Below, piece by piece: positions 3,301 to 41,265 of a stretch of 44,385 bases of DNA. The notes under the pieces are model-generated. The model ran no database searches and had not been told where the DNA came from. It was given only the letters and a program-made list of their open reading frames with translations. The stretch lies in sequence record NC_008152.1; one strand, written 5' to 3'. This DNA comes from Escherichia phage K1-5. Each line of letters starts with the position of its first letter. Position 1 is the first letter of the stretch. The position numbers and the translations under genes are program-made.

Positions 3301-5928
3301 ATGCAAGGCCTACACGCTATTCAACTTCAACTTGAAGAAGAAATGTTTAACGGCGGTATCCGTCGCTTTGAAGCGGACCAACAACGCCAGATTGCATCCG
3401 GTAATGAATCAGACACGGCATGGAATCGCCGCTTATTGTCCGAGTTAATCGCGCCAATGGCTGAAGGTATTCAGGCATACAAGGAAGAGTATGAAGGTAA
3501 AAGAGGCCGTGCACCGCGTGCATTAGCTTTCATTAACTGCGTAGAAAACGAAGTGGCAGCATATATCACGATGAAAATCGTTATGGATATGCTGAACACG
3601 GATGTAACCTTGCAGGCTATAGCCATGAATGTAGCTGACCGCATTGAGGACCAAGTACGTTTTAGCAAGCTGGAAGGTCACGCCGCCAAATACTTTGAAA
3701 AAGTTAAGAAGTCACTTAAGGCAAGTAAGACTAAATCATATCGCCATGCGCACAACGTAGCGGTAGTGGCTGAGAAGTCAGTAGCTGACCGTGACGCTGA
3801 TTTCTCCCGCTGGGAGGCATGGCCTAAAGACACCTTGCTGCAAATTGGGATGACCTTGCTTGAAATCTTAGAGAATAGCGTATTCTTCAACGGGCAACCT
3901 GTCTTCCTCCGCACCTTGCGCACTAATGGCGGCAAACATGGTGTTTACTACCTACAGACTAGTGAACACGTAGGTGAGTGGATAACTGCATTCAAAGAGC
4001 ACGTAGCGCAACTGAGTCCTGCCTATGCTCCTTGCGTCATCCCTCCGCGTCCGTGGGTATCACCTTTTAACGGCGGTTTCCACACTGAGAAAGTAGCAAG
4101 CCGTATTCGTCTGGTAAAAGGAAACCGCGAACACGTCCGCAAGCTGACCAAAAAGCAAATGCCAGAGGTTTACAAGGCTGTTAACGCGTTGCAGGCGACT
4201 AAATGGCAGGTTAACAAGGAAGTTTTACAGGTTGTGGAAGACGTCATCCGTCTAGACCTAGGTTATGGTGTACCTTCCTTTAAACCACTCATTGACCGCG
4301 AGAACAAGCCAGCTAATCCAGTGCCGCTAGAATTTCAGCACCTACGGGGCCGTGAACTGAAAGAAATGCTTACGCCGGAACAATGGCAAGCCTTTATCAA
4401 CTGGAAAGGTGAATGTACTAAGCTGTACACCGCTGAAACTAAGCGCGGAAGCAAATCGGCGGCAACCGTTCGCATGGTTGGTCAGGCCCGTAAATATAGC
4501 CAGTTCGACGCAATCTACTTCGTGTATGCACTGGACAGCCGCAGCCGCGTCTACGCGCAATCTAGCACACTCTCACCGCAATCAAATGACTTGGGCAAGG
4601 CCTTGCTCCGTTTTACCGAAGGGCAGCGTCTTGATAGCGCTGAGGCGCTTAAGTGGTTTTTGGTGAACGGGGCTAATAACTGGGGTTGGGATAAGAAAAC
4701 TTTTGACGTGCGCACCGCTAACGTGCTGGATAGTGAATTTCAAGACATGTGCCGCGACATTGCAGCGGATCCGCTGACCTTCACTCAATGGGTAAATGCC
4801 GACTCCCCTTACGGCTTCCTTGCATGGTGCTTTGAATATGCGCGTTATCTGGATGCACTGGATGAAGGCACGCAAGACCAATTCATGACGCACCTCCCAG
4901 TCCATCAAGATGGTAGTTGTTCTGGTATCCAGCACTACAGTGCTATGCTACGCGATGCAGTAGGTGCGAAAGCAGTAAACCTTAAGCCCTCTGACTCTCC
5001 TCAAGATATTTATGGTGCCGTTGCGCAGGTAGTAATTCAGAAGAATTATGCATACATGAATGCAGAGGATGCGGAAACCTTCACTTCTGGCAGCGTGACT
5101 TTAACAGGTGCGGAGCTGCGTAGTATGGCTAGTGCGTGGGATATGATAGGAATCACTCGCGGCCTGACCAAAAAGCCCGTAATGACACTACCTTATGGCA
5201 GCACACGTCTAACCTGCCGTGAGTCAGTGATTGATTATATCGTTGATTTAGAAGAAAAAGAGGCCCAACGGGCTATTGCGGAAGGGCGTACCGCCAATCC
5301 TGTACACCCTTTTGATAATGACCGTAAAGACAGCCTGACACCTAGCGCAGCTTATAACTATATGACAGCTTTAATCTGGCCTTCTATTTCGGAAGTGGTT
5401 AAAGCCCCTATAGTGGCAATGAAAATGATTCGTCAGCTTGCCCGTTTCGCAGCTAAAAGGAATGAAGGCTTAGAGTATACCCTGCCTACTGGCTTCATCT
5501 TGCAACAAAAGATTATGGCTACTGATATGCTCCGCGTATCTACTTGCTTGATGGGAGAAATCAAGATGAGTCTACAGATTGAAACAGACGTAGTGGATGA
5601 AACGGCAATGATGGGCGCTGCTGCTCCTAACTTTGTGCATGGTCATGATGCCAGCCACCTTATCTTAACAGTCTGCGACCTTGTTGATAAAGGGATTACA
5701 TCTATCGCAGTTATTCATGACTCTTTTGGCACTCATGCAGGCCGTACAGCCGACCTTCGTGATAGCTTAAGGGCAGAAATGGTGAAGATGTATCAAGGCC
5801 GTAATGCACTGCAAAGCCTGCTAGATGAGCACGAAGAACGCTGGTTAGTTGATACCGGAATACAAGTACCAGAGCAAGGGGAGTTTGACCTTAACGAAAT
5901 CTTAGTTTCAGACTATTGCTTCGCATAA
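3301..5928 (+). CDS. T7-like single-subunit DNA-directed RNA polymerase
   Basis: 875 aa; [16 protein letters not shown] (motif A), IHDSFGTHA (motif C), C-terminal ...DYCFA; AGGAG RBS. Confidence 0.97.
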
Positions 5929-34247: not shown

Positions 34248-35209
34248 TGAGTTATACTTTCACAGAACATACAGCCAATGGTACGCAAGTCACCTATCCT
34301 TTTAGCTTTGCTGGTAGGGATAAAGGTTATCTTCGTGCCTCAGATGTGATAGTGGAGTCTCTTCAAGGTAACACTTGGATTGAAGTTACATCTGGCTGGC
34401 AACTAACTGGCACGCACCAGATTACTTTTGATGTAGCACCAGTTGCAGGTTTGAAGTTCCGTATTCGAAGGGAAGTACAAAAAGAATATCCATACGCTGA
34501 GTTTGACCGTGGTGTTACCTTGGATATGAAGTCTTTAAATGGTTCTTTCATTCATATACTGGAGATTACACAGGAGTTACTTGACGGGTTTTATCCAGAA
34601 GGATACTTCATTAAACAGAATGTAAGCTGGGGCGGCAATAAGATTACTGATTTGGCTGATGGCACAAATCCGGGAGATGCAGTAAATAAAGGGCAGCTTG
34701 ATGCCATCGACAAGAAGCATACAGATTGGAACGCCAAACAGGACATTGAGATTGCTGGCCTTAAGGCTGGTATGACTTCTGGTATTGCGCACAGAACTGT
34801 TCCTTGGTACACGATAGCCCAAGGTGGTGAGATTTCCGTAAAACCACCTTATGAATTTCAAGATGCACTAGTTTTCCTTAATGGGGTATTGCAGCACCAA
34901 ATTGTAGGCGCATACTCTATAAGCAACAACACTATCACTTTCGCAGAGCCGCTTGTGGCTGGTACAGAGGTGTATGTGCTGATTGGTAGTCGTGTGGCTA
35001 CATCTGAACCTAATATTCAGTTGGAGTTGAACTTTGACTTAGTAGAAGGCCAACAAGTAGTACAGATTGGCTCTGCATTTAAGTACATTGAGGTCTACCT
35101 TGATGGATTATTACAACCTAAACTTGCTTATCAGGTAGACGGTGACATTGTTACTTTCTCAGAAAGAGTACCAGAATGCCGGATGACTGCTAAGATTATC
35201 ACAGCATAA
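34247..35209 (+). CDS. Tail-fibre adaptor protein (homologue of the T7 gp17 N-terminal tail-attachment domain)
   Basis: 320 aa; GNKITDLADGTNPGDAVNKGQLDAI resembles T7 gp17 RRIVNLANAVDDRDAVPFGQL; ATG overlaps upstream stop. Confidence 0.75.
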   Translation: MSYTFTEHTANGTQVTYPFSFAGRDKGYLRASDVIVESLQGNTWIEVTSGWQLTGTHQITFDVAPVAGLKFRIRREVQKEYPYAEFDRGVTLDMKSLNGSFIHILEITQELLDGFYPEGYFIKQNVSWGGNKITDLADGTNPGDAVNKGQLDAIDKKHTDWNAKQDIEIAGLKAGMTSGIAHRTVPWYTIAQGGEISVKPPYEFQDALVFLNGVLQHQIVGAYSISNNTITFAEPLVAGTEVYVLIGSRVATSEPNIQLELNFDLVEGQQVVQIGSAFKYIEVYLDGLLQPKLAYQVDGDIVTFSERVPECRMTAKIITA

Positions 35210-35218
35210 GGAGGTGGG

Positions 35219-35413
35219 ATGATTAACTCCGAACTGGTAGATAGTGGTGTGAAGCTTGCGCCACCTGCACTCATATCAGGTGGGTACTTCCTCGGTATCA
35301 GTTGGGATAATTGGGTGTTAATAGCAACATTCATTTATACCGTGTTGCAAATTGGGGACTGGTTTTATAATAAGTTCAAGATTTGGAGGGAGAAGCGTGA
35401 GCGTACACAATAA
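35219..35413 (+). CDS. Class II holin (T7 gp17.5-like)
   Basis: 64 aa; AAGGAGG RBS; IYTVLQIG with charged C-terminus resembles T7 holin AYTVVQIG...; directly before the small terminase gene as in T7. Confidence 0.75.
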   Translation: MINSELVDSGVKLAPPALISGGYFLGISWDNWVLIATFIYTVLQIGDWFYNKFKIWREKRERTQ

Positions 35414-35696
35414 ACATGCAGCTACAGAGGACGAGGTTGGCATTCTGCATGGTGCTATTACCAAAATCTTCAATAAGAAAGCACAGGCAATACTGGACAC
35501 TATAGAAGAAGACCCTGATGCAGCATTACATTTAGTGTCTGGTAAGGATATTGGTGCGATGTGTAAGTGGGTTCTTGATAACGGCATTACCGCCACACCT
35601 GCTGCACAGCAGGAAGAGTCCAAGTTATCTAAGCGCCTCAAGGCTATCCGAGAGGCATCCAGTGGTAAGATAATTCAATTCACTAAGGAGGATTGA
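35397..35696 (+). CDS. Terminase small subunit (gp18-like)
   Basis: Track ORF 35352; likely GTG 35397 start after GGAGGGAG; directly upstream of the large subunit; assignment by synteny. Confidence 0.55.
   Translation: MSVHNKHAATEDEVGILHGAITKIFNKKAQAILDTIEEDPDAALHLVSGKDIGAMCKWVLDNGITATPAAQQEESKLSKRLKAIREASSGKIIQFTKED
35488..35508 (+). promoter_or_regulatory. Near-consensus phage promoter embedded in the small terminase gene
   Basis: caatactggacactatagaag; 18 of 21 positions match, all mismatches at the 5' edge. Confidence 0.45.
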
Positions 35697-37594
35697 TGGC
35701 TAAGGCAAGAGAATCACAAGCGGAGGCTCTTGCCAGATGGGAGATGCTACAGGAGTTACAGCAGACCTTTCCTTACACCGCGGAAGGTTTGCTTCTCTTT
35801 GCAGATACAGTTATTCATAACTTAATTGCAGGCAACCCTCATCTGATTCGTATGCAGGCGGATATCTTGAAGTTCCTATTTTACGGACACAAGTACCGCC
35901 TCATCGAAGCGCCTCGTGGTATCGCTAAGACAACACTATCAGCAATCTATACGGTATTCCGTATTATTCATGAACCGCATAAGCGTATCATGGTTGTGTC
36001 CCAAAACGCCAAGCGAGCAGAGGAAATCGCAGGTTGGGTAGTTAAAATCTTCCGTGGCTTAGACTTTCTTGAGTTTATGCTGCCGGATATCTACGCTGGG
36101 GACCGTGCATCCGTTAAGGCGTTTGAGATTCATTACACCCTACGTGGTAGTGATAAGTCTCCTTCTGTATCCTGTTACTCAATCGAAGCAGGTATGCAGG
36201 GTGCTCGTGCTGATATTATTCTAGCGGATGACGTAGAGTCGATGCAGAATGCTCGTACGGCAGCGGGCCGTGCCTTGCTTGAGGAGCTGACTAAGGAGTT
36301 TGAATCTATCAACCAGTTTGGGGATATCATTTACCTTGGTACACCTCAGAACGTAAACTCTATCTACAACAACCTACCTGCTCGTGGTTACTCTGTTCGT
36401 ATCTGGACTGCGCGTTACCCTTCAGTAGAGCAAGAGCAATGTTATGGCGACTTCCTTGCACCTATGATTGTTCAAGATATGAAGGACAACCCAGCACTTC
36501 GCTCAGGGTACGGGTTGGATGGTAATAGTGGTGCACCTTGTGCCCCTGAAATGTATGATGATGAAGTCCTGATTGAGAAGGAAATCTCTCAGGGTGCTGC
36601 TAAGTTCCAGCTTCAGTTCATGCTTAACACTCGCATGATGGATGCTGACAGATACCCATTACGCCTGAACAATCTAATCTTCACCTCGTTTGGTACAGAG
36701 GAAGTCCCTGTGATGCCTACGTGGAGTAATGATTCCATAAACATCATTGGTGATGCACCTAAGTATGGTAACAAGCCTACGGATTTCATGTACAGACCTG
36801 TAGCTCGCCCATATGAATGGGGTGCTGTCTCCCGCAAGATTATGTATATTGACCCTGCGGGTGGTGGTAAGAACGGAGATGAGACGGGTGTAGCCATCGT
36901 ATTCCTGCACGGCACATTCATTTATGTGTATCAGTGCTTTGGTGTACCTGGCGGATACCGAGAGTCGTCCCTGAATCGCATTGTGCAGGCCGCAAAGCAG
37001 GCGGGTGTTAAAGAGGTATTCATTGAGAAGAACTTTGGTCATGGCGCGTTTGAGGCGGTAATTAAGCCGTACTTTGAACGAGAGTGGCCTGTAACTCTGG
37101 AAGAGGATTACGCCACCGGACAGAAAGAGTTGCGTATCATTGAGACGCTGGAGCCGCTCATGGCAGCCCATAGGCTTATCTTCAATGCAGAGATGGTGAA
37201 GTCAGACTTTGAGTCGGTACAGCACTATCCGCTTGAACTACGCATGTCCTACAGTCTTTTCAATCAAATGTCGAACATAACGATTGAGAAGAACAGCCTC
37301 CGGCACGATGACCGCCTAGACGCCCTGTATGGCGCTATACGGCAATTAACTTCTCAGATAGACTATGACGAGGTTACACGGATTAATCGCCTCAGAGCGC
37401 AGGAGATGCGCGATTACATCCATGCTATGAACACACCTCATCTACGCAGGGCAATGCTATATGGAGATTACGGTACTGAGCGAAGAGTGACCAACACTTC
37501 CGTAGCGATGCAGCAGCGAGTTTACGGGCAGAACTACCGAAATAAATCGGCAAGCAGAAATACACTTTCTGCAAGGATTTCAAGGACTTATTAA
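35696..37594 (+). CDS. Terminase large subunit (gp19-like)
   Basis: 632 aa; AAGGAGG RBS; deviant Walker A RGIAKTT, Walker B IILADDVE, RNaseH-like nuclease segment IDPAGGGKNGDETGVAI. Confidence 0.9.
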   Translation: MAKARESQAEALARWEMLQELQQTFPYTAEGLLLFADTVIHNLIAGNPHLIRMQADILKFLFYGHKYRLIEAPRGIAKTTLSAIYTVFRIIHEPHKRIMVVSQNAKRAEEIAGWVVKIFRGLDFLEFMLPDIYAGDRASVKAFEIHYTLRGSDKSPSVSCYSIEAGMQGARADIILADDVESMQNARTAAGRALLEELTKEFESINQFGDIIYLGTPQNVNSIYNNLPARGYSVRIWTARYPSVEQEQCYGDFLAPMIVQDMKDNPALRSGYGLDGNSGAPCAPEMYDDEVLIEKEISQGAAKFQLQFMLNTRMMDADRYPLRLNNLIFTSFGTEEVPVMPTWSNDSINIIGDAPKYGNKPTDFMYRPVARPYEWGAVSRKIMYIDPAGGGKNGDETGVAIVFLHGTFIYVYQCFGVPGGYRESSLNRIVQAAKQAGVKEVFIEKNFGHGAFEAVIKPYFEREWPVTLEEDYATGQKELRIIETLEPLMAAHRLIFNAEMVKSDFESVQHYPLELRMSYSLFNQMSNITIEKNSLRHDDRLDALYGAIRQLTSQIDYDEVTRINRLRAQEMRDYIHAMNTPHLRRAMLYGDYGTERRVTNTSVAMQQRVYGQNYRNKSASRNTLSARISRTY

Positions 37595-37613
37595 TTACTG
37601 GACACTATAGAAG
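37593..37613 (+). promoter_or_regulatory. Phage RNAP promoter just after the terminase large subunit
   Basis: aattactggacactatagaag; overlaps terminase stop; followed by an ATAGGT-rich block. Confidence 0.7.
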
Positions 37614-37755
37614 GAAGGCCCAGATAATAAGAGAAAATAATAGGTAATATATATATAGGTTAACCTAGGTTATATAGGTATGCCTTAGTATGGGTGTACT
37701 CCTGTACACCCTATTCCTTACTACCTTACTATATTTACATAATAGGAGAGAGACA

Positions 37756-38034
37756 ATGGCTAATGATTATAGTAGTCAACCATTAACAGGTAAGTCTAAG
37801 AGAAAGCAGGTACAACCTGTAAGTGAAGAACTAATGCTTCCGGTGCTCAAAAAAGAGGAAGTTAGTAAGAAAAGCAATGTTATTAATGATGCCACCAAAT
37901 CAGGTAAACAGAAAGGGGCCATGGTGTGCCTTGAAGTGAAAGGTGGTGTATTGAAGATTGCTATCGCGGTTGATGGCAAAGAAGATTCAGAGTGGAAGTT
38001 AGTAACAGTGGAACCAACTGTTAACCCAGTTTAA
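37756..38034 (+). CDS. Hypothetical protein (92 aa), paralogue A
   Basis: Track ORF 37690; ATG 37756 after AGGAGAG; shares KKEE..SK...SGKQKGAMV.LE...IAVA motif with the next ORF. Confidence 0.55.
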   Translation: MANDYSSQPLTGKSKRKQVQPVSEELMLPVLKKEEVSKKSNVINDATKSGKQKGAMVCLEVKGGVLKIAIAVDGKEDSEWKLVTVEPTVNPV

Positions 38035-38052
38035 GATAAGGAGGAAGATTAC

Positions 38053-38343
38053 ATGGCTAAATATGGTACTACAGGTTCTGTTACTGGTCAGGCTTTTCGA
38101 GTAAAAGCAGTACAAACTATTGCAACGGCAATCCCGATGCCTGTTGTTAAAGAAGAAGACCTTAAGAGTAAAGACCACCCTATCAACATCAAACATTTAT
38201 CAGGTAAACAGAAAGGTGCAATGGTTGCTCTTGAGAAAGGTGACACAACCTTACATATTGCTGTTGCACGTGGTAGTGAACCCACAGACCCTTGGGATGT
38301 AACTGGTATGGAAAAGGACGCTGTTACTCCAGCAGGGGTATAA
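38053..38343 (+). CDS. Hypothetical protein (96 aa), paralogue B
   Basis: TAAGGAGG RBS; SGKQKGAMVALEKGDTTLHIAVA. Confidence 0.6.
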   Translation: MAKYGTTGSVTGQAFRVKAVQTIATAIPMPVVKEEDLKSKDHPINIKHLSGKQKGAMVALEKGDTTLHIAVARGSEPTDPWDVTGMEKDAVTPAGV

Positions 38344-38345
38344 TA

Positions 38346-38690
38346 ATGCTTAATAAATACTTCAAGCGTAAAGAGTTTGCTTGCCGTTGTGGGTGCGGTA
38401 CATCCACTGTTGATGCTGAATTACTACAGGTAGTCACAGATGTGCGTGAGCACTTTGGTTCTCCTGTAGTTATCACTTCGGGTCATCGCTGTGCTAAGCA
38501 CAATGCCAATGTAGGTGGCGCTAAGAACTCCATGCATCTTACTGGTAAGGCTGCTGACATTAAAGTGTCTGGCATATTACCTTCTGAAGTGCATAAGTAT
38601 CTTACTAGCAAATACCAAGGCAAGTATGGTATAGGTAAGTATAACTCCTTCACTCACATCGATGTACGGGATGGTTGTGCGCGATGGTAA
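38346..38690 (+). CDS. Endolysin, peptidase M15-type zinc peptidase
   Basis: Track ORF 38292; ATG 38346; SGHRCAKHNANVGGAKNSMHLTGKAADI matches the M15 H..D...H zinc-binding signature. Confidence 0.8.
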   Translation: MLNKYFKRKEFACRCGCGTSTVDAELLQVVTDVREHFGSPVVITSGHRCAKHNANVGGAKNSMHLTGKAADIKVSGILPSEVHKYLTSKYQGKYGIGKYNSFTHIDVRDGCARW

Positions 38691-38798
38691 GATGTGTTGA
38701 ATGGTGTGAGCGTATGGTTGCCCAAGCTGCCGAGGATGGCAACTATGATGACTGGAAGAACTACTCTGACTTGTTAGCTCAATGGAAAGGGAGATGCA

Positions 38799-38948
38799 AT
38801 GAAAAAGCTGTTTAAGTCTAAGAAGGTTGTAGGTGCACTGGTTGCACTTGTTATTGCTCTTGTTTCTGTAGGTCTTGGTGTAGACCTTGGCTCTGGCACG
38901 GAATCCTCTGTGACAGATGTGGTCTGCCAAGTGATCACCTGTGAATAA
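38799..38948 (+). CDS. Small membrane protein (49 aa) in lysis cassette
   Basis: AGGGAG RBS; MKKLFKSKKVVGALVALVIALVSVGLGV has one TM helix; between endolysin and spanin candidates. Confidence 0.35.
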   Translation: MKKLFKSKKVVGALVALVIALVSVGLGVDLGSGTESSVTDVVCQVITCE

Positions 38949-39162
38949 GTTTCTAGAAGTTCTGGCAGGTCTTATTGGCCTGCTTGTCTCTGCTAAGAAG
39001 AAACAAGAAGAGAAGGAGGCACAAAGTGAAGCGAATCATGTTAGTGACAACCCTTCTGATTGGTTCGCTGACCACTTCCGGGTGTCAGCAGGCGTTACCA
39101 GAGAAAGCAATGGTGAAACCTCTGAGGCCGACGCTGACGGCAGTTTACGAGGTAGACGATAA
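38941..39162 (+). CDS. Candidate i-spanin (Rz-like), 73 aa
   Basis: GTG start in track; N-terminal TM FLEVLAGLIGLLVSA then charged region; an o-spanin-like ORF starts inside it. Short for an i-spanin. Confidence 0.35.
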   Translation: MNKFLEVLAGLIGLLVSAKKKQEEKEAQSEANHVSDNPSDWFADHFRVSAGVTRESNGETSEADADGSLRGRR

Positions 39163-39235
39163 GGTCTGCTTTAGTAAGCCTGACGCTACAAAACTTGGTT
39201 TGTACATTCTCTCGCTAGAACGCGGATACAATTAA
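39026..39235 (+). CDS. Candidate o-spanin (Rz1-like) lipoprotein
   Basis: Track ORF 38975; GTG 39026 6 nt after AAGGAGG (or ATG 39038); signal MKRIMLVTTLLIGSLTTSGC with lipobox-like TSGC. Confidence 0.5.
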   Translation: MKRIMLVTTLLIGSLTTSGCQQALPEKAMVKPLRPTLTAVYEVDDKVCFSKPDATKLGLYILSLERGYN

Positions 39236-39264
39236 TACATAGCTTTATGTATCAGTGTCTTACG

Positions 39265-39285
39265 ATTTACTGGACACTATAGAAG
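39265..39285 (+). promoter_or_regulatory. Phage RNAP promoter (perfect consensus) upstream of tailspike cassette
   Basis: atttactggacactatagaag. Confidence 0.8.
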
Positions 39286-39366
39286 AGGTAAGATAGCGCC
39301 GTTCTTTTGAGCGGCCTATTACTAGCCAATCTTCATAGGGAGGGTTGGAAAGTAATAGGAGATAGC

Positions 39367-41265
39367 ATGGCTAAATTAACCAAACCTAATACTGAAGGAA
39401 TCTTGCATAAAGGACAATCTTTGTATGAGTACCTTGATGCGAGAGTTTTAACATCAAAGCCGTTTGGTGCTGCAGGTGACGCCACTACTGATGATACGGA
39501 GGTTATAGCTGCTTCATTAAACTCTCAGAAAGCTGTCACAGTCTCAGATGGTGTATTCTCTAGCTCTGGTATTAACAGTAATTACTGTAACTTAGACGGC
39601 AGGGGTAGTGGCGTGCTAAGTCACCGTTCAAGTACAGGTAACTACTTAGTATTTAACAATCTACGTGCAGGTCGCTTAAGTAATATTACGGTAGAAAGTA
39701 ATAAGGCGACTGATACAACTCAGGGACAGCAGGTATCCCTTGCTGGTGGAAGTGATGTTACTGTAAGTGACGTTAACTTCTCAAACGTTAAAGGTACTGG
39801 TTTCAGTTTAATCGCATACCCTAATGATGCGCCACCTGATGGACTTATGATTAAAGGCATTCGAGGTAGCTATTCCGGCTATGCTACTAATAAGGCAGCC
39901 GGATGCGTACTTGCTGATTCCTCAGTTAACTCCCTCATAGATAACGTCATTGCTAAGAACTACCCTCAGTTCGGAGCAGTAGAGTTGAAAGGTACAGCCA
40001 GTTACAACATAGTCAGTAATGTTATAGGGACAGATTGCCAGCATGTAACTTACAACGGCACTGAAGGGCCAATAGCTCCTTCTAATAACCTTATCAAGGG
40101 GGTGATGGCTAATAACCCTAAGTATGCAGCGGTTGTTGCAGGCAAAGGAAGTACGAACTTAATCTCAGACGTGCTCGTAGATTACTCAACTTCTGATGCT
40201 AGGCAGGCTCATGGTGTTACAGTAGAGGGTTCTGATAACGTCATAAATAATGTGCTTATGTCAGGATGTGATGGTACTAACTCTTTAGGACAAGGGCAGA
40301 CTGCTACAATTGCACGCTTTATAGGTACAGCTAATAACAACTATGCGTCTGTATTTCCTAGCTACAGTGCTACAGGTGTTATTACTTTCGAATCCGGCTC
40401 TACCCGTAACTTCGTAGAGGTAAAGCACCCTGGCAGGAGAAACGACCTTCTCAGTTCTGCTAGTACTATTGACGGTGCAGCTACTATTGACGGCACTAGT
40501 AATAGTAACGTAGTGCACGCACCTGCCTTAGGGCAGTACATAGGTAGTATGTCAGGTAGGTTCGAATGGCGGATTAAGTCCATGTCACTCCCTTCAGGCG
40601 TTCTTACTTCTGCTGATAAGTACAGAATGCTTGGAGATGGTGCTGTGTCATTAGCTGTAGGTGGGGGCACTTCTTCTCAAGTTCGCCTATTTACTTCTGA
40701 TGGTACTTCTCGGACAGTGTCCCTCACCAACGGTAACGTGCGTCTTTCTACCAGTAGCACAGGCTTTTTGCAGTTAGGTGCTGATGCAATGACCCCAGAC
40801 AGTACTGGTACATACGCATTAGGTTCCGCCAGCCGAGCATGGTCTGGCGGTTTTACTCAAGCAGCATTCACTGTTACCTCAGATGCTCGGTGTAAAACAG
40901 AACCTCTTACTATCTCAGATGCCTTACTGGATGCTTGGTCTGAAGTTGACTTTGTGCAGTTTCAGTATTTGGATCGTGTTGAGGAGAAGGGTGCAGACTC
41001 AGCTAGATGGCACTTCGGTATCATCGCTCAGCGAGCTAAGGAGGCTTTCGAACGTCACGGTATAGATGCACATCGCTATGGCTTCTTGTGCTTCGACAGT
41101 TGGGATGATGTATACGAGGAAGATGCCAATGGCTCTCGTAAACTGATTACACCAGCAGGTTCCCGCTACGGTATTCGTTACGAGGAAGTACTGATATTAG
41201 AGGCTGCGTTGATGCGGCGGACTATTAAGCGTATGCAGGAAGCACTAGCTTCCCTGCCTAAGTAA
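39367..41265 (+). CDS. Tailspike 1: beta-helix polysaccharide depolymerase (K5-lyase-like) with C-terminal self-cleaving chaperone domain
   Basis: Track ORF 39307; ATG 39367 gives 632 aa; repetitive beta-helix-like rungs (NVIAKN, NIVSNVIG, NVINNVLMS); C-terminal SDARCK ... HFGIIAQRAKEAF resembles the peptidase S74 intramolecular chaperone. Confidence 0.7.
   Translation: MAKLTKPNTEGILHKGQSLYEYLDARVLTSKPFGAAGDATTDDTEVIAASLNSQKAVTVSDGVFSSSGINSNYCNLDGRGSGVLSHRSSTGNYLVFNNLRAGRLSNITVESNKATDTTQGQQVSLAGGSDVTVSDVNFSNVKGTGFSLIAYPNDAPPDGLMIKGIRGSYSGYATNKAAGCVLADSSVNSLIDNVIAKNYPQFGAVELKGTASYNIVSNVIGTDCQHVTYNGTEGPIAPSNNLIKGVMANNPKYAAVVAGKGSTNLISDVLVDYSTSDARQAHGVTVEGSDNVINNVLMSGCDGTNSLGQGQTATIARFIGTANNNYASVFPSYSATGVITFESGSTRNFVEVKHPGRRNDLLSSASTIDGAATIDGTSNSNVVHAPALGQYIGSMSGRFEWRIKSMSLPSGVLTSADKYRMLGDGAVSLAVGGGTSSQVRLFTSDGTSRTVSLTNGNVRLSTSSTGFLQLGADAMTPDSTGTYALGSASRAWSGGFTQAAFTVTSDARCKTEPLTISDALLDAWSEVDFVQFQYLDRVEEKGADSARWHFGIIAQRAKEAFERHGIDAHRYGFLCFDSWDDVYEEDANGSRKLITPAGSRYGIRYEEVLILEAALMRRTIKRMQEALASLPK

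What the first reader, a model, noticed from the sequence alone, without database searches (positions are those of the whole stretch)
35219..39235. Split lysis system: T7-type holin before terminase, endolysin-membrane peptide-spanin cassette after it
A gp17.5-like holin lies at 35219..35413. About 3 kb downstream are an M15 peptidase endolysin, a 49-aa single-TM peptide and two overlapping ORFs that look like an i-spanin/o-spanin pair with the lipoprotein extending past the end of the TM partner. The 49-aa peptide could be a second holin, pinholin or antiholin. The i-spanin candidate is unusually short at 73 aa, so it may be mis-framed.
Basis: partly seen in the sequence, partly recalled or inferred. 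Interest (0 to 1): 0.55.

Follow-up and report, generated by a model that had tools for sequence, protein, structure and literature searches.

The report
K1-5 lysis genes, ambiguous spanin partner
This is the already catalogued cell-bursting gene set of coliphage K1-5 (holin, cell-wall enzyme, outer-membrane lipoprotein); the one open point is which of two tiny conserved genes works with the lipoprotein, because databases disagree and one of the two is unannotated in close relatives.

Summary
The window is the coliphage K1-5 genome: SpaninDB's K1-5 spanin coordinates match it exactly. These are a T7-type holin (35219-35413), an M15 endolysin (38346-38690), a 49-aa membrane peptide (B), a 73-aa ORF (C) and an overlapping lipoprotein (D, 39026-39235). 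A 43-aa ORF (A) lies between the endolysin and B.

The holin-before-terminase and endolysin-after-terminase layout is the standard, published arrangement of SP6-like phages. It is not new.

C is not mis-framed. It is intact in all 25 relatives compared and shows purifying selection only in its own frame. C and D co-occur in about 155 phage genomes and in unrelated metagenomic lysis cassettes, with D nearly always overlapping C's 3' end in the +1 frame.

Databases conflict. SpaninDB calls B the i-spanin in K1-5 but calls the C equivalent the i-spanin in UAB_Phi78. RefSeq calls B a holin. One SP6 record labels C an o-spanin.

My best reading is that C and D form the outer-membrane-disruption pair and that B is a truncated holin-family accessory. 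C's N-terminal helix is only a marginal membrane anchor, and it is plainly amphipathic in many relatives, so the mechanism is unresolved. Overall this is a known system of moderate interest.

The parts
35219..35413 (+). T7 gp17.5-type holin (64 aa), immediately upstream of the terminase small-subunit gene and overlapping its start
   Evidence: Pfam PF10746 at E=3.7e-27 and PHROG 920 'holin'. Annotated as holin in LL11, KMB14 and SP6.
37598..37613 (+). Phage RNA-polymerase promoter consensus CTGGACACTATAGAAG, heading the endolysin cassette
   Evidence: One of 6 exact copies in the window (12 matches at up to 3 mismatches, against 0.5 expected by chance).
38346..38690 (+). Soluble M15 zinc-peptidase endolysin (114 aa)
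   Evidence: Pfam PF08291 at E=6.9e-34 and PHROG 894 'endolysin'. H-x6-D...H motif and no signal or SAR segment, read directly from the sequence.
38684..38815 (+). ORF A, a 43-aa soluble CxxWC protein. Its ATG overlaps the endolysin stop (ATGGTAA). Function unknown and probably dispensable.
   Evidence: dN/dS 0.19 in frame against about 1 in shifted frames. PHROG 1312, function unknown. Broken by a nonsense codon or truncation in L004 (LL11) and L008.
38799..38948 (+). ORF B (K1-5 gp44), a 49-aa bitopic membrane peptide. It has a K-rich N-terminus, a 19-aa TMD, and a 21-aa acidic tail ending in CQxxxCE.
   Evidence: dN/dS 0.15 and KD19 2.76. PHROG 4712 'holin'. Called i-spanin in SpaninDB with the curator note 'Too small?'. 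A homologue sits in the T7 18.5 slot of Vibrio phage ICP3.
38941..39162 (+). ORF C, 73 aa, not annotated in the K1E RefSeq record. Its GTG start overlaps the B stop (GTGAATAA). It has an N-terminal hydrophobic/amphipathic helix, a KKK-charged helix, the conserved motif DNPxDWFADHF (aa 36-46), and a variable tail.
   Evidence: Codons 3-28 have dN/dS 0.26 against 1.2 and 3.4 in shifted frames. Codons 30-48 have 0.14, while the overlapping D frame has 0.93. Pairwise binomial P = 0.0002-0.03 in the C frame only. PHROG 9219. 50 clusters at 50% identity. AF2 predicts helices 3-28 and 38-45 at pLDDT 59.
39013..39019 (+). Shine-Dalgarno sequence AAGGAGG for D, lying inside C
   Evidence: Read from the sequence. 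The same SD is quoted in SpaninDB.
39026..39235 (+). ORF D (K1-5 gp45), a 69-aa prolipoprotein with lipobox TTSG|C (Cys20) and Gln at +2. The mature form is 50 aa, with a conserved C-terminus DAxKLGLYILxLERGY. It is the o-spanin candidate.
   Evidence: PHROG 8971 'Rz-like spanin' at E=1.7e-38. Called o-spanin in SpaninDB. Lipobox rule met in 19 of 20 homologues, none with Asp at +2. dN/dS 0.09-0.22 in the mature C-terminal part.
39270..39285 (+). Next phage promoter, marking the downstream boundary of the cassette before the tailspike gene
   Evidence: Exact consensus match.

Best explanation
This is the lysis gene set of coliphage K1-5, arranged as in all SP6-like phages.

Shown:
- A T7 gp17.5-type holin gene sits just before the terminase genes.
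- After the terminase, behind its own phage promoter, lie a tandem pair of unrelated paralogues, a soluble M15 endolysin, and a tightly packed block A-B-C-D.
- D is a small lipoprotein with an outer-membrane sorting signal.
- C is a genuine, purifying-selected 73-aa protein. Its start is coupled to the stop of B, and its 3' half is overprinted by D in the +1 frame.
- C and D are inherited together across very distant phages.

Inferred:
- The holin permeabilises the inner membrane and releases the endolysin, which cuts the peptidoglycan.
- D, together with its D-specific partner C, then disrupts the outer membrane in the way an overlapped two-component spanin does (P2 LysB/LysC type).
- B is a one-helix remnant of a 2-TMD holin-like family that precedes C in other cassettes. 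It acts as an accessory (a timing factor, or possibly a membrane anchor for C) rather than as the specific partner of D.

How C reaches D is not established. In K1-5 its N-terminal helix may be a weak type-II anchor.
For: - Identity of the window: SpaninDB's K1-5 coordinates (38798..38948 and 39025..39235) and sequences equal the window.
- Holin and endolysin: HMM hits.
- Layout: the split arrangement is reported as conserved in SP6-like phages (PMC4640515) and is annotated the same way in LL11, KMB14, K1E and SP6.
- C is coding.
- C-D linkage: tblastn finds C in 154 phage records and D in 156, with near-identical genus breakdowns. The overlapped pair recurs next to four or more different endolysin types in Proteus, Aeromonas, Edwardsiella, Ralstonia and Vibrio phages and in metagenomic cassettes. 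In Vibrio phage X29 an inserted opposite-strand gene separates C and D, yet both are kept.
- Frame: D is in the +1 frame of C, the spanin hallmark.
- Precedent: SpaninDB itself calls the C/D equivalents of UAB_Phi78 an overlapped i-/o-spanin pair.
- B is not D-specific: ICP3 pairs a B homologue with an unrelated lipoprotein and has no C, while X29 and L070 pair C/D with unrelated upstream TM proteins.
- The B+D pair on its own was flagged 'Too short' (71 periplasmic residues) by its own curators.
Against: - C's N-terminal segment is at best a marginal TMD. KD19 is 1.25, the same as the accepted i-spanin K1F gp18.5 at 1.23, but it is followed directly by KKK.
- Across the C family, only a periodic hydrophobic face (LLxxLxxLLxL) is conserved. 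Only 14 of 47 representatives reach KD19 of 1.6 or more, and marine members (for example MKTLEILLRLLDNLLAAIKFRK) are plainly amphipathic. An i-spanin without a TMD could not export its own periplasmic domain.
- C has no Cys, no long coiled coil, and no detectable homology to known i-spanins.
- B has the textbook type-II topology and sits in the T7 18.5 slot in ICP3.
- No experiment on B, C or D was found in the held literature.
Confidence: 0.5

Rival explanations
1. The SpaninDB reading. B (49 aa) is the i-spanin and D the o-spanin, in a 'separated' architecture. C is an unrelated small cytoplasmic protein, for example an RIII-like or LydB-like regulator of the holin or of B, that merely shares DNA with D.
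For: - B has a strong TMD, a K-rich cytoplasmic N-terminus, and a periplasmic tail with two conserved Cys.
- A B homologue followed by a lipoprotein occupies the T7 18.5/18.7 slot in ICP3, with no C present.
- The SP6 record AY288927.2 and the Premi record call B the i-spanin.
- C lacks a convincing TMD in many relatives.
Against: - B has only 21 periplasmic residues, against 50 in mature D. The curators themselves wrote 'Too small?' and 'Too short'.
- B's tail motif (GVDLxG...CxxxxC) is the same whether the lipoprotein is D or the unrelated ICP3 one, so it does not track its supposed partner.
- In distant cassettes the B slot holds 2-TMD proteins whose C-terminus would be cytoplasmic, and D occurs with non-B upstream proteins.
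- This reading does not explain the strict C-D co-inheritance.
Confidence: 0.17
2. A three-part device. B supplies the inner-membrane anchor. C is made in a fixed ratio to B through stop-start coupling, binds B or the membrane through its amphipathic N-helix, and binds D through the DPxxWFxxHF motif. B-C-D together span the periplasm.
For: - C's start overlaps the stop of the upstream small TM protein in every lineage examined (-8 to +2 nt).
- B-C-D stay contiguous from Vectrevirus to Aeromonas, Ralstonia and Vibrio phages.
- B+D alone are too short.
- C's conserved hydrophobic face suggests helix-helix packing rather than a bilayer span.
Against: - There is no export route for C in the amphipathic members.
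- In cassettes where the upstream protein has 2 TMDs, its C-terminus is predicted to be cytoplasmic.
- The one apparent B-C fusion (P0075) is a 113-nt deletion derivative of a normal two-gene arrangement, so it is not evidence.
- ICP3 has B but no C.
Confidence: 0.18
3. C and D are not a spanin. D disrupts or modifies the outer membrane on its own or has another role. C is a cytoplasmic factor unrelated to lysis. The overlap is only genome compaction.
For: No experimental evidence exists for any of B, C or D. C has no homology to known spanins. The PHROG label for C is 'unknown function'.
Against: - The block always lies directly after an endolysin and a holin-like gene, whatever the phage type.
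- D has every sequence feature of an o-spanin.
- K1-5 would otherwise have no identified way to breach the outer membrane.
Confidence: 0.1

Closest known systems
P2 LysA / LysB-LysC, and other 'overlapped' two-component spanins (Summer 2007 and Kongari 2018 classification)
   Same: The order is endolysin, then a small membrane protein, then an ORF whose 3' end is overlapped in the +1 frame by a lipoprotein gene that runs past its stop. The lipoprotein is small and lacks Asp at +2. As Kongari et al. describe for overlapped pairs, the upstream ORF diverges most where the overlap lies.
   Different: C is only 61-73 aa and has no long coiled coil and no Cys. Its N-terminal helix is marginal or amphipathic rather than a clear TMD. 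No sequence homology was detectable.
T7 gp17.5 holin with gp18.5/18.7 embedded spanins
   Same: The holin is a true family member (PF10746) in the same position before the small terminase gene. T7-group phages also keep the endolysin far from the holin.
   Different: T7 places its spanins between genes 18 and 19 and uses an amidase (gp3.5). K1-5 places an M15 peptidase plus A-B-C-D after gene 19. hhalign of C against K1F gp18.5 gives a probability below 1%.
SpaninDB 'K1-5' family (K1-5, K1E, SP6; UAB_Phi78) and 'VP4' family (ICP3, N4, VP3, VP4)
   Same: The genes are the same: B is the listed i-spanin and D the listed o-spanin. B is homologous to the 47-aa ICP3/VP4 'i-spanin'.
   Different: The database is internally inconsistent. 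For UAB_Phi78 the C equivalent, not B, is called the i-spanin. C is missing from the K1-5, K1E and SP6 entries.
Lambda Rz/Rz1
   Same: The proposed role is the same: the last lysis step, linking an outer-membrane lipoprotein to an inner-membrane-side partner.
   Different: Rz has 153 aa with two coiled-coil helices and disulfide-forming Cys, and Rz1 is fully embedded within it. Here the pair totals about 105 non-anchor residues and is only partly overlapped.
Non-spanin outer-membrane disruptors and cytoplasmic lysis regulators (phiKT gp28 'disruptin', T4 RIII, P1 LydB). Recalled from my own knowledge, not tested here.
   Same: These are small helical or amphipathic proteins encoded in lysis cassettes, and some are made in the cytoplasm.
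   Different: No sequence similarity was examined or found. None of them is overprinted by a lipoprotein gene.

Membership tests
T7-type holin (Pfam PF10746, Phage_holin_2_2) | Profile match above the curated cut-off | tested here: met
   94.3 bits against a cut-off of 25.4, E=3.7e-27.
T7-type holin (Pfam PF10746, Phage_holin_2_2) | Holin activity: lethal membrane hole formation that releases the endolysin | not testable with these tools
   The only evidence is indirect. The homologue in KBNP1315 gave moderate growth inhibition and enhanced endolysin lysis (PMC4640515).
Peptidase_M15_3 endolysin | Profile match and H-x6-D...H zinc ligands | tested here: met
   116.7 bits, E=6.9e-34. HLTGKAAD and FTHID motifs read in the translation.
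o-spanin (for D) | N-terminal lipoprotein signal with a lipobox Cys | tested here: met
   A PS51257-like rule is met, with TTSG|C at Cys20. It is also met in 19 of 20 homologues. SpaninDB reports a LipoP hit.
o-spanin (for D) | Outer-membrane sorting (no Asp at +2) and a small mature protein | tested here: met
   Gln at +2. Mature length is 50 aa (43-52 aa in homologues), with 4 Pro and 1 extra Cys.
o-spanin (for D) | Gene overlapped or embedded in the +1 frame of the i-spanin gene, or adjacent to it, within a lysis cassette | tested here: met
   D starts 85 nt into C, in the +1 frame. The cassette follows the endolysin.
i-spanin (candidate C, 73 aa) | N-terminal TMD with N-in/C-out topology | tested here: inconclusive
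   KD19 is 1.25, equal to the accepted i-spanin K1F gp18.5 at 1.23. The longest run free of charged, polar or Pro residues is 12 residues, followed by KKK. 14 of 47 family representatives reach 1.6 or more, and many are clearly amphipathic.
i-spanin (candidate C, 73 aa) | Charged alpha-helical (coiled-coil) periplasmic domain | tested here: inconclusive
   AF2 predicts one helix at 3-28 and a short helix at 38-45, with the rest disordered. Mean pLDDT is 59.
i-spanin (candidate C, 73 aa) | Co-inheritance with a specific o-spanin | tested here: met
   154 phage records against 156, with near-identical genus breakdowns. The pair is retained even when split in X29.
i-spanin (candidate B, 49 aa) | N-terminal TMD with N-in/C-out topology | tested here: met
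   Five Lys precede a 19-aa hydrophobic core (KD19 2.76), followed by an acidic tail.
i-spanin (candidate B, 49 aa) | Periplasmic domain long enough, with D, to span the envelope | tested here: not met
   21 + 50 = 71 residues. The SpaninDB curators marked it 'Too small?' and 'Too short'.
i-spanin (candidate B, 49 aa) | Co-inheritance with a specific o-spanin | tested here: not met
   The same B tail motif occurs with an unrelated lipoprotein in ICP3. D occurs with non-B upstream proteins in X29 and L070.
Two-component spanin (any pairing) | Physical complex and requirement for outer-membrane disruption (Mg2+-stabilised spherical cells in mutants) | not testable with these tools
   No experimental report was found in the held library.
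Holin (for B, PHROG 4712 label) | Profile membership, plus at least one TMD with a charged cytoplasmic C-terminus | tested here: inconclusive
   PHROG 4712 at E=2.8e-27, but the label is not experimentally based. Distant 2-TMD relatives hit holin PHROGs 34682 and 297, and one hits 4712. B's own C-terminus is acidic and predicted to be periplasmic.

The most novel reading that the evidence does not exclude
C is a TMD-less protein made in the cytoplasm. It meets the outer-membrane lipoprotein D only after the holin opens the inner membrane, either alone or docked on the small membrane peptide B. That would be a holin-gated, three-gene outer-membrane-disruption device, distinct from both two-component and unimolecular spanins, and widespread in phage lysis cassettes. 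It would also explain why the 'B+D' pair looked too short to its curators.
Probability: 0.15. Interest if true: 0.75.

Novelty: already known. Interest (0 to 1): 0.35.

Why it matters
As a lysis cassette this locus is ordinary and already catalogued. What the analysis adds is curation. A conserved, selected gene (C) is missing from the K1E RefSeq annotation and from the K1-5/K1E/SP6 SpaninDB entries. It is mislabelled 'o-spanin' in one SP6 record. It is the only component that tracks the D-type lipoprotein across phage diversity. If C, not B, is D's partner, then the SpaninDB 'K1-5' i-spanin family is mis-assigned. If C really lacks a membrane anchor, the two-component spanin model would need an exception. 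K1-5, K1E and SP6 relatives are used in phage therapy and engineering, so knowing which small genes are needed for lysis has practical value.

Tried and rejected
1. Frameshift or sequencing error in 38799..39235: rejected. Offsets are identical and indel-free in many independent genomes, and the ORF is intact in all 25 relatives.
2. C as a remote homologue of T7-group or other i-spanins: hhalign probabilities were below 1%. Profile searches of PDB sequences gave only noise. Pfam gave nothing.
3. C as a protein with a cleaved signal peptide: the small-x-small motif before the KKK cluster (VSA|K, LAA|K) is not conserved (SP6 has LAY, Premi has KSY), and basic residues at +1 to +3 argue against export. 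Rejected.
4. P0075 as a natural B-C fusion proving that C is periplasmic: rejected. The near-identical contig L076 has separate 64-aa and 69-aa genes, so P0075 is a 113-nt deletion derivative.
5. Positive-inside rule and crude hydrophobicity as a way to fix C's topology: not decisive, because accepted i-spanins (K1F gp18.5, K1G, K139) score similarly.
6. AF2 of C: low confidence (pLDDT 59), giving secondary structure only. Complex prediction was not possible with the tools.
7. Locus search with a D-family alignment failed because no stretch was conserved enough.
8. Dobbins et al. 2004 (PMC374404) is not held.
9. Literature searches found no experiments on these genes.

Full report
**Identity of the window.** The supplementary tables of the spanin census by Kongari et al. 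2018 (PMC6139136) list, for phage K1-5 (NC_008152), a 'separated' i-spanin at 38798..38948 and an o-spanin at 39025..39235. They give the exact protein sequences and Shine-Dalgarno contexts seen in the window (sequence). The window is therefore the K1-5 genome. By megablast it is 92-98% identical to dozens of Vectrevirus genomes across 35100-39400.

**Check of the observation.** All the ORFs exist as described.
- The 64-aa ORF at 35219..35413 is a clear member of the T7 holin family (PF10746, E=3.7e-27; PHROG 920).
- It is followed by the small and large terminase genes (PF11123, PF22530).
- The endolysin (ATG 38346 to 38690) is a Peptidase_M15_3 protein (E=6.9e-34). It has the H-x6-D...H zinc motif and no N-terminal hydrophobic segment, so it is a soluble, holin-dependent enzyme.

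Downstream lie four packed small ORFs, which I call A, B, C and D.
- A (38684..38815, 43 aa) has its ATG inside the endolysin stop.
- B (38799..38948) is the 49-aa membrane peptide.
- C (38941..39162, 73 aa) has a GTG start that overlaps B's stop as GTGAATAA.
- D is the lipoprotein. This gives a 69-aa precursor with lipobox TTSG|C, Gln at +2, and a 50-aa mature protein.

Exact copies of the phage promoter CTGGACACTATAGAAG lie at 35493, 37598 and 39270. The endolysin/A-B-C-D block therefore has its own promoter and is bounded by the tailspike promoter.

**Are the small ORFs genes?** I retrieved 53 loci from IMG/VR through the endolysin. From 25 distinct close-to-moderate relatives (24 of those loci plus the window) I built codon alignments of A, B, C and D. 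Pooled Nei-Gojobori dN/dS values are as follows.
- A: 0.19, against 1.0 and 1.2 in shifted frames.
- B: 0.15, against 2.0 and 1.9.
- C codons 3-28, the stretch SpaninDB treats as a 77-nt intergenic gap: 0.26, against 1.2 and 3.4.
- D's non-overlapped C-terminus: 0.09.

In the overlap the constraint is neatly partitioned.
- Where C's conserved motif overlies D's signal peptide, the C frame has dN/dS 0.14 and the D frame 0.93.
- Where D's conserved mature domain begins, D is constrained (0.22) and C's tail is free (0.85), with length varying from 61 to 73 aa.

Six individual lineage pairs show a significant excess of synonymous change in the C frame only (P = 0.0002-0.03). C is intact and in the same register in all 25 relatives. 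The suggested mis-framing or sequencing error is therefore refuted. A is broken in LL11 and in one metagenomic relative, so it is probably dispensable.

**The split layout is known.** The layout is holin, TerS and TerL, then endolysin and spanin candidates. It is annotated in LL11, KMB14, K1E and SP6. The KBNP1315 study describes the 'separated position' of the lysis genes as conserved among SP6-like phages. That study also showed modest lytic synergy for the gp17.5-type holin homologue (PMC4640515). T7 itself also keeps gene 17.5 before gene 18.

**The unresolved part is who partners D.** Annotations conflict.
- SpaninDB calls B the i-spanin and D the o-spanin for K1-5, K1E and SP6. [quoted passage not shown]
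- For the SP6-like phage UAB_Phi78, the same database lists an overlapped pair, a 69-aa i-spanin and a 61-aa o-spanin. These are the C and D equivalents.
- RefSeq and PHROGs call B a 'holin' (PHROG 4712), C 'unknown' (PHROG 9219) and D 'Rz-like spanin' (PHROG 8971).
- The SP6 record AY288927.2 labels B 'i-spanin'. It attaches 'o-spanin' to gene 48, which on translation is the C ORF, N-terminally truncated (VAGLLG...). The true lipoprotein ORF is left unannotated.

**Comparative evidence.** The A-B-C-D block extends to Proteus (Premi), Aeromonas (Aer_P220), Edwardsiella, Klebsiella, Ralstonia (Reminis), Vibrio (JSF38) and ECBP5-like phages. In several of these the endolysin is a transglycosylase rather than an M15 peptidase.

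An exhaustive profile search found 50 C-family clusters at 50% identity. Members are 49-132 aa long, nearly all about 60-80 aa. The consensus is LLxxLxxLLxL...KxEQxxAQxExD...PxxWFxxHFxGV.

I examined the contexts of distant members in metagenomic contigs, IMG/VR loci and Vibrio phage X29. All of them show the same order.
1. An endolysin of some type: M15, GH24 lysozyme, DUF5675 or amidase.
2. A small membrane protein. It is usually 62-76 aa with two hydrophobic helices and hits holin PHROGs.
3. C, with its start overlapping the upstream stop.
4. A D-type lipoprotein overlapping C's 3' end.

In X29 an opposite-strand gene has been inserted between C (58 aa) and D, and both are retained. In the phage collection, tblastn finds C in 154 records and D in 156, with near-identical genus breakdowns. 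D homologues keep a lipobox, never have Asp at +2, and have a mature length of 43-52 aa.

B, by contrast, is not D-specific. Vibrio phage ICP3 is T7-like. It has a clear B homologue with the same GVDLxG...CxxxxC tail, translationally coupled to an unrelated lipoprotein. The pair lies between genes 18 and 19, the slot of T7 18.5/18.7, and there is no C-like ORF.

**Interpretation.** C is the component that tracks D, and the C/D arrangement is the hallmark of overlapped spanin genes: the lipoprotein gene begins inside the upstream ORF in the +1 frame and runs past its stop. My best reading (confidence about 0.5) is that C and D act together in outer-membrane disruption. On this reading B is a one-helix derivative of the holin-like proteins that precede C elsewhere, and it plays an accessory role.

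The weak point is C's anchor. In K1-5 the N-terminal segment (FLEVLAGLIGLLVSA) scores like the TMD of the accepted i-spanin K1F gp18.5 (KD19 1.25 against 1.23). It is followed at once by KKK. Family-wide, only one helical face is conserved as hydrophobic, and only 14 of 47 representatives reach the classical 1.6 threshold. Marine members such as MKTLEILLRLLDNLLAAIKFRK cannot span a bilayer. AF2 gives only a long helix at 3-28 and a short helix over the WF motif, at low confidence. No homology to known i-spanins or solved structures was detected.

Three rivals remain open.
- B+D is a mini-spanin and C is a cytoplasmic regulator.
- B, C and D form a three-part device.
- The block is not a spanin at all.

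An apparent B-C fusion protein (P0075) turned out to be a 113-nt deletion derivative of a normal two-gene arrangement, and I discarded it as evidence.

**Novelty and interest.** The finding as stated is the known lysis system of a well-studied phage and is already in a curated spanin database. It is ordinary in kind. The residual interest has two parts. First, there is a conserved gene that reference annotations omit or mislabel, and the database is inconsistent about it. Second, there is a modest chance (about 0.15) that the C family represents an anchor-less partner of an outer-membrane lipoprotein that acts only after the holin fires, which would be a new route for the last step of lysis. 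Standard lambda Rz/Rz1 complementation, phage nonsense mutants and topology reporters would settle this quickly.

Noticed in passing
window 38684-38815: ORF A is a 43-aa soluble protein with a CxxWC motif. Its ATG overlaps the endolysin stop and its end overlaps B's start. It is under purifying selection (dN/dS 0.19) and belongs to PHROG 1312, of unknown function. A nonsense codon knocks it out in LL11 (L004) and it is truncated in L008. It is absent from the K1E RefSeq annotation.
   Followed up: partly
window 37756-38034 and 38053-38343: Two tandem paralogous genes (92 and 96 aa, sharing the motif SGKQKGAMV..E) lie between the promoter and the endolysin. They hit PHROG 2725, whose label 'acetyl-CoA acetyltransferase' is implausible for 90-aa proteins and has propagated into many RefSeq records.
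   Followed up: no
window 35493-35508 (also 12585, 14595, 22857, 37598, 39270): There are six exact copies of the phage promoter core CTGGACACTATAGAAG and six degenerate ones. One exact copy lies inside the small-terminase gene, just downstream of the holin.
   Followed up: partly
window 37620-37711: An AT-rich stretch with short palindromes (GGTTAACC, CCTAGG) and a GC-rich hairpin followed by T's (37692-37711) lies between the 37598 promoter and the first paralogue. It could be an RNA processing or termination element.
   Followed up: no
L075 (SP6 AY288927.2) 4108-4305 and 4121-4381: The SP6 GenBank record labels gene 48 'o-spanin', but this CDS is the C ORF, N-terminally truncated and without a lipobox. 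The real lipoprotein ORF in the +1 frame is not annotated.
   Followed up: yes
L060 (Vibrio phage ICP3) 2265-2605: A B homologue (47 aa) and an unrelated 65-aa acidic lipoprotein, coupled by a TAATG overlap, occupy the T7 18.5/18.7 slot between genes 18 and 19. The annotated orf51 there is in the wrong frame.
   Followed up: partly
L073 (Vibrio phage X29) 1009-1944: C (58 aa) and D (68 aa) are separated by a 158-aa gene on the opposite strand. This is a natural 'separated' version of the pair.
   Followed up: partly
L062/L063 (JSF38, ECBP5) 978-1292: A 104-aa gene is inserted between A and B in ECBP5-like phages. Their endolysin is a transglycosylase with a hydrophobic N-terminus; the homologue in the SP6-like phage KBNP1315 is reported as a SAR endolysin.
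   Followed up: no
L064 329-616 compared with L076 1043-1443: A TARA contig carries a 113-nt deletion that fuses the first helix of the upstream membrane protein to the core of C, giving the 95-aa protein P0075. It could be a real variant or an assembly artefact.
   Followed up: partly
relatives (AAPEc6, VEc3, KMB47, EC120): Several close relatives carry an HNH homing-endonuclease gene inserted in this region, so the megablast match breaks into two or more pieces. It is absent from the window.
   Followed up: no
L067 2051-2323; L077 152-406; L083 2254-2526: Distant cassettes containing C/D also encode an 84-90-aa protein with one TMD plus a coiled coil, upstream of the endolysin or of the small membrane protein. 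It could be the holin or a conventional i-spanin there, which would change the reading of C.
   Followed up: no
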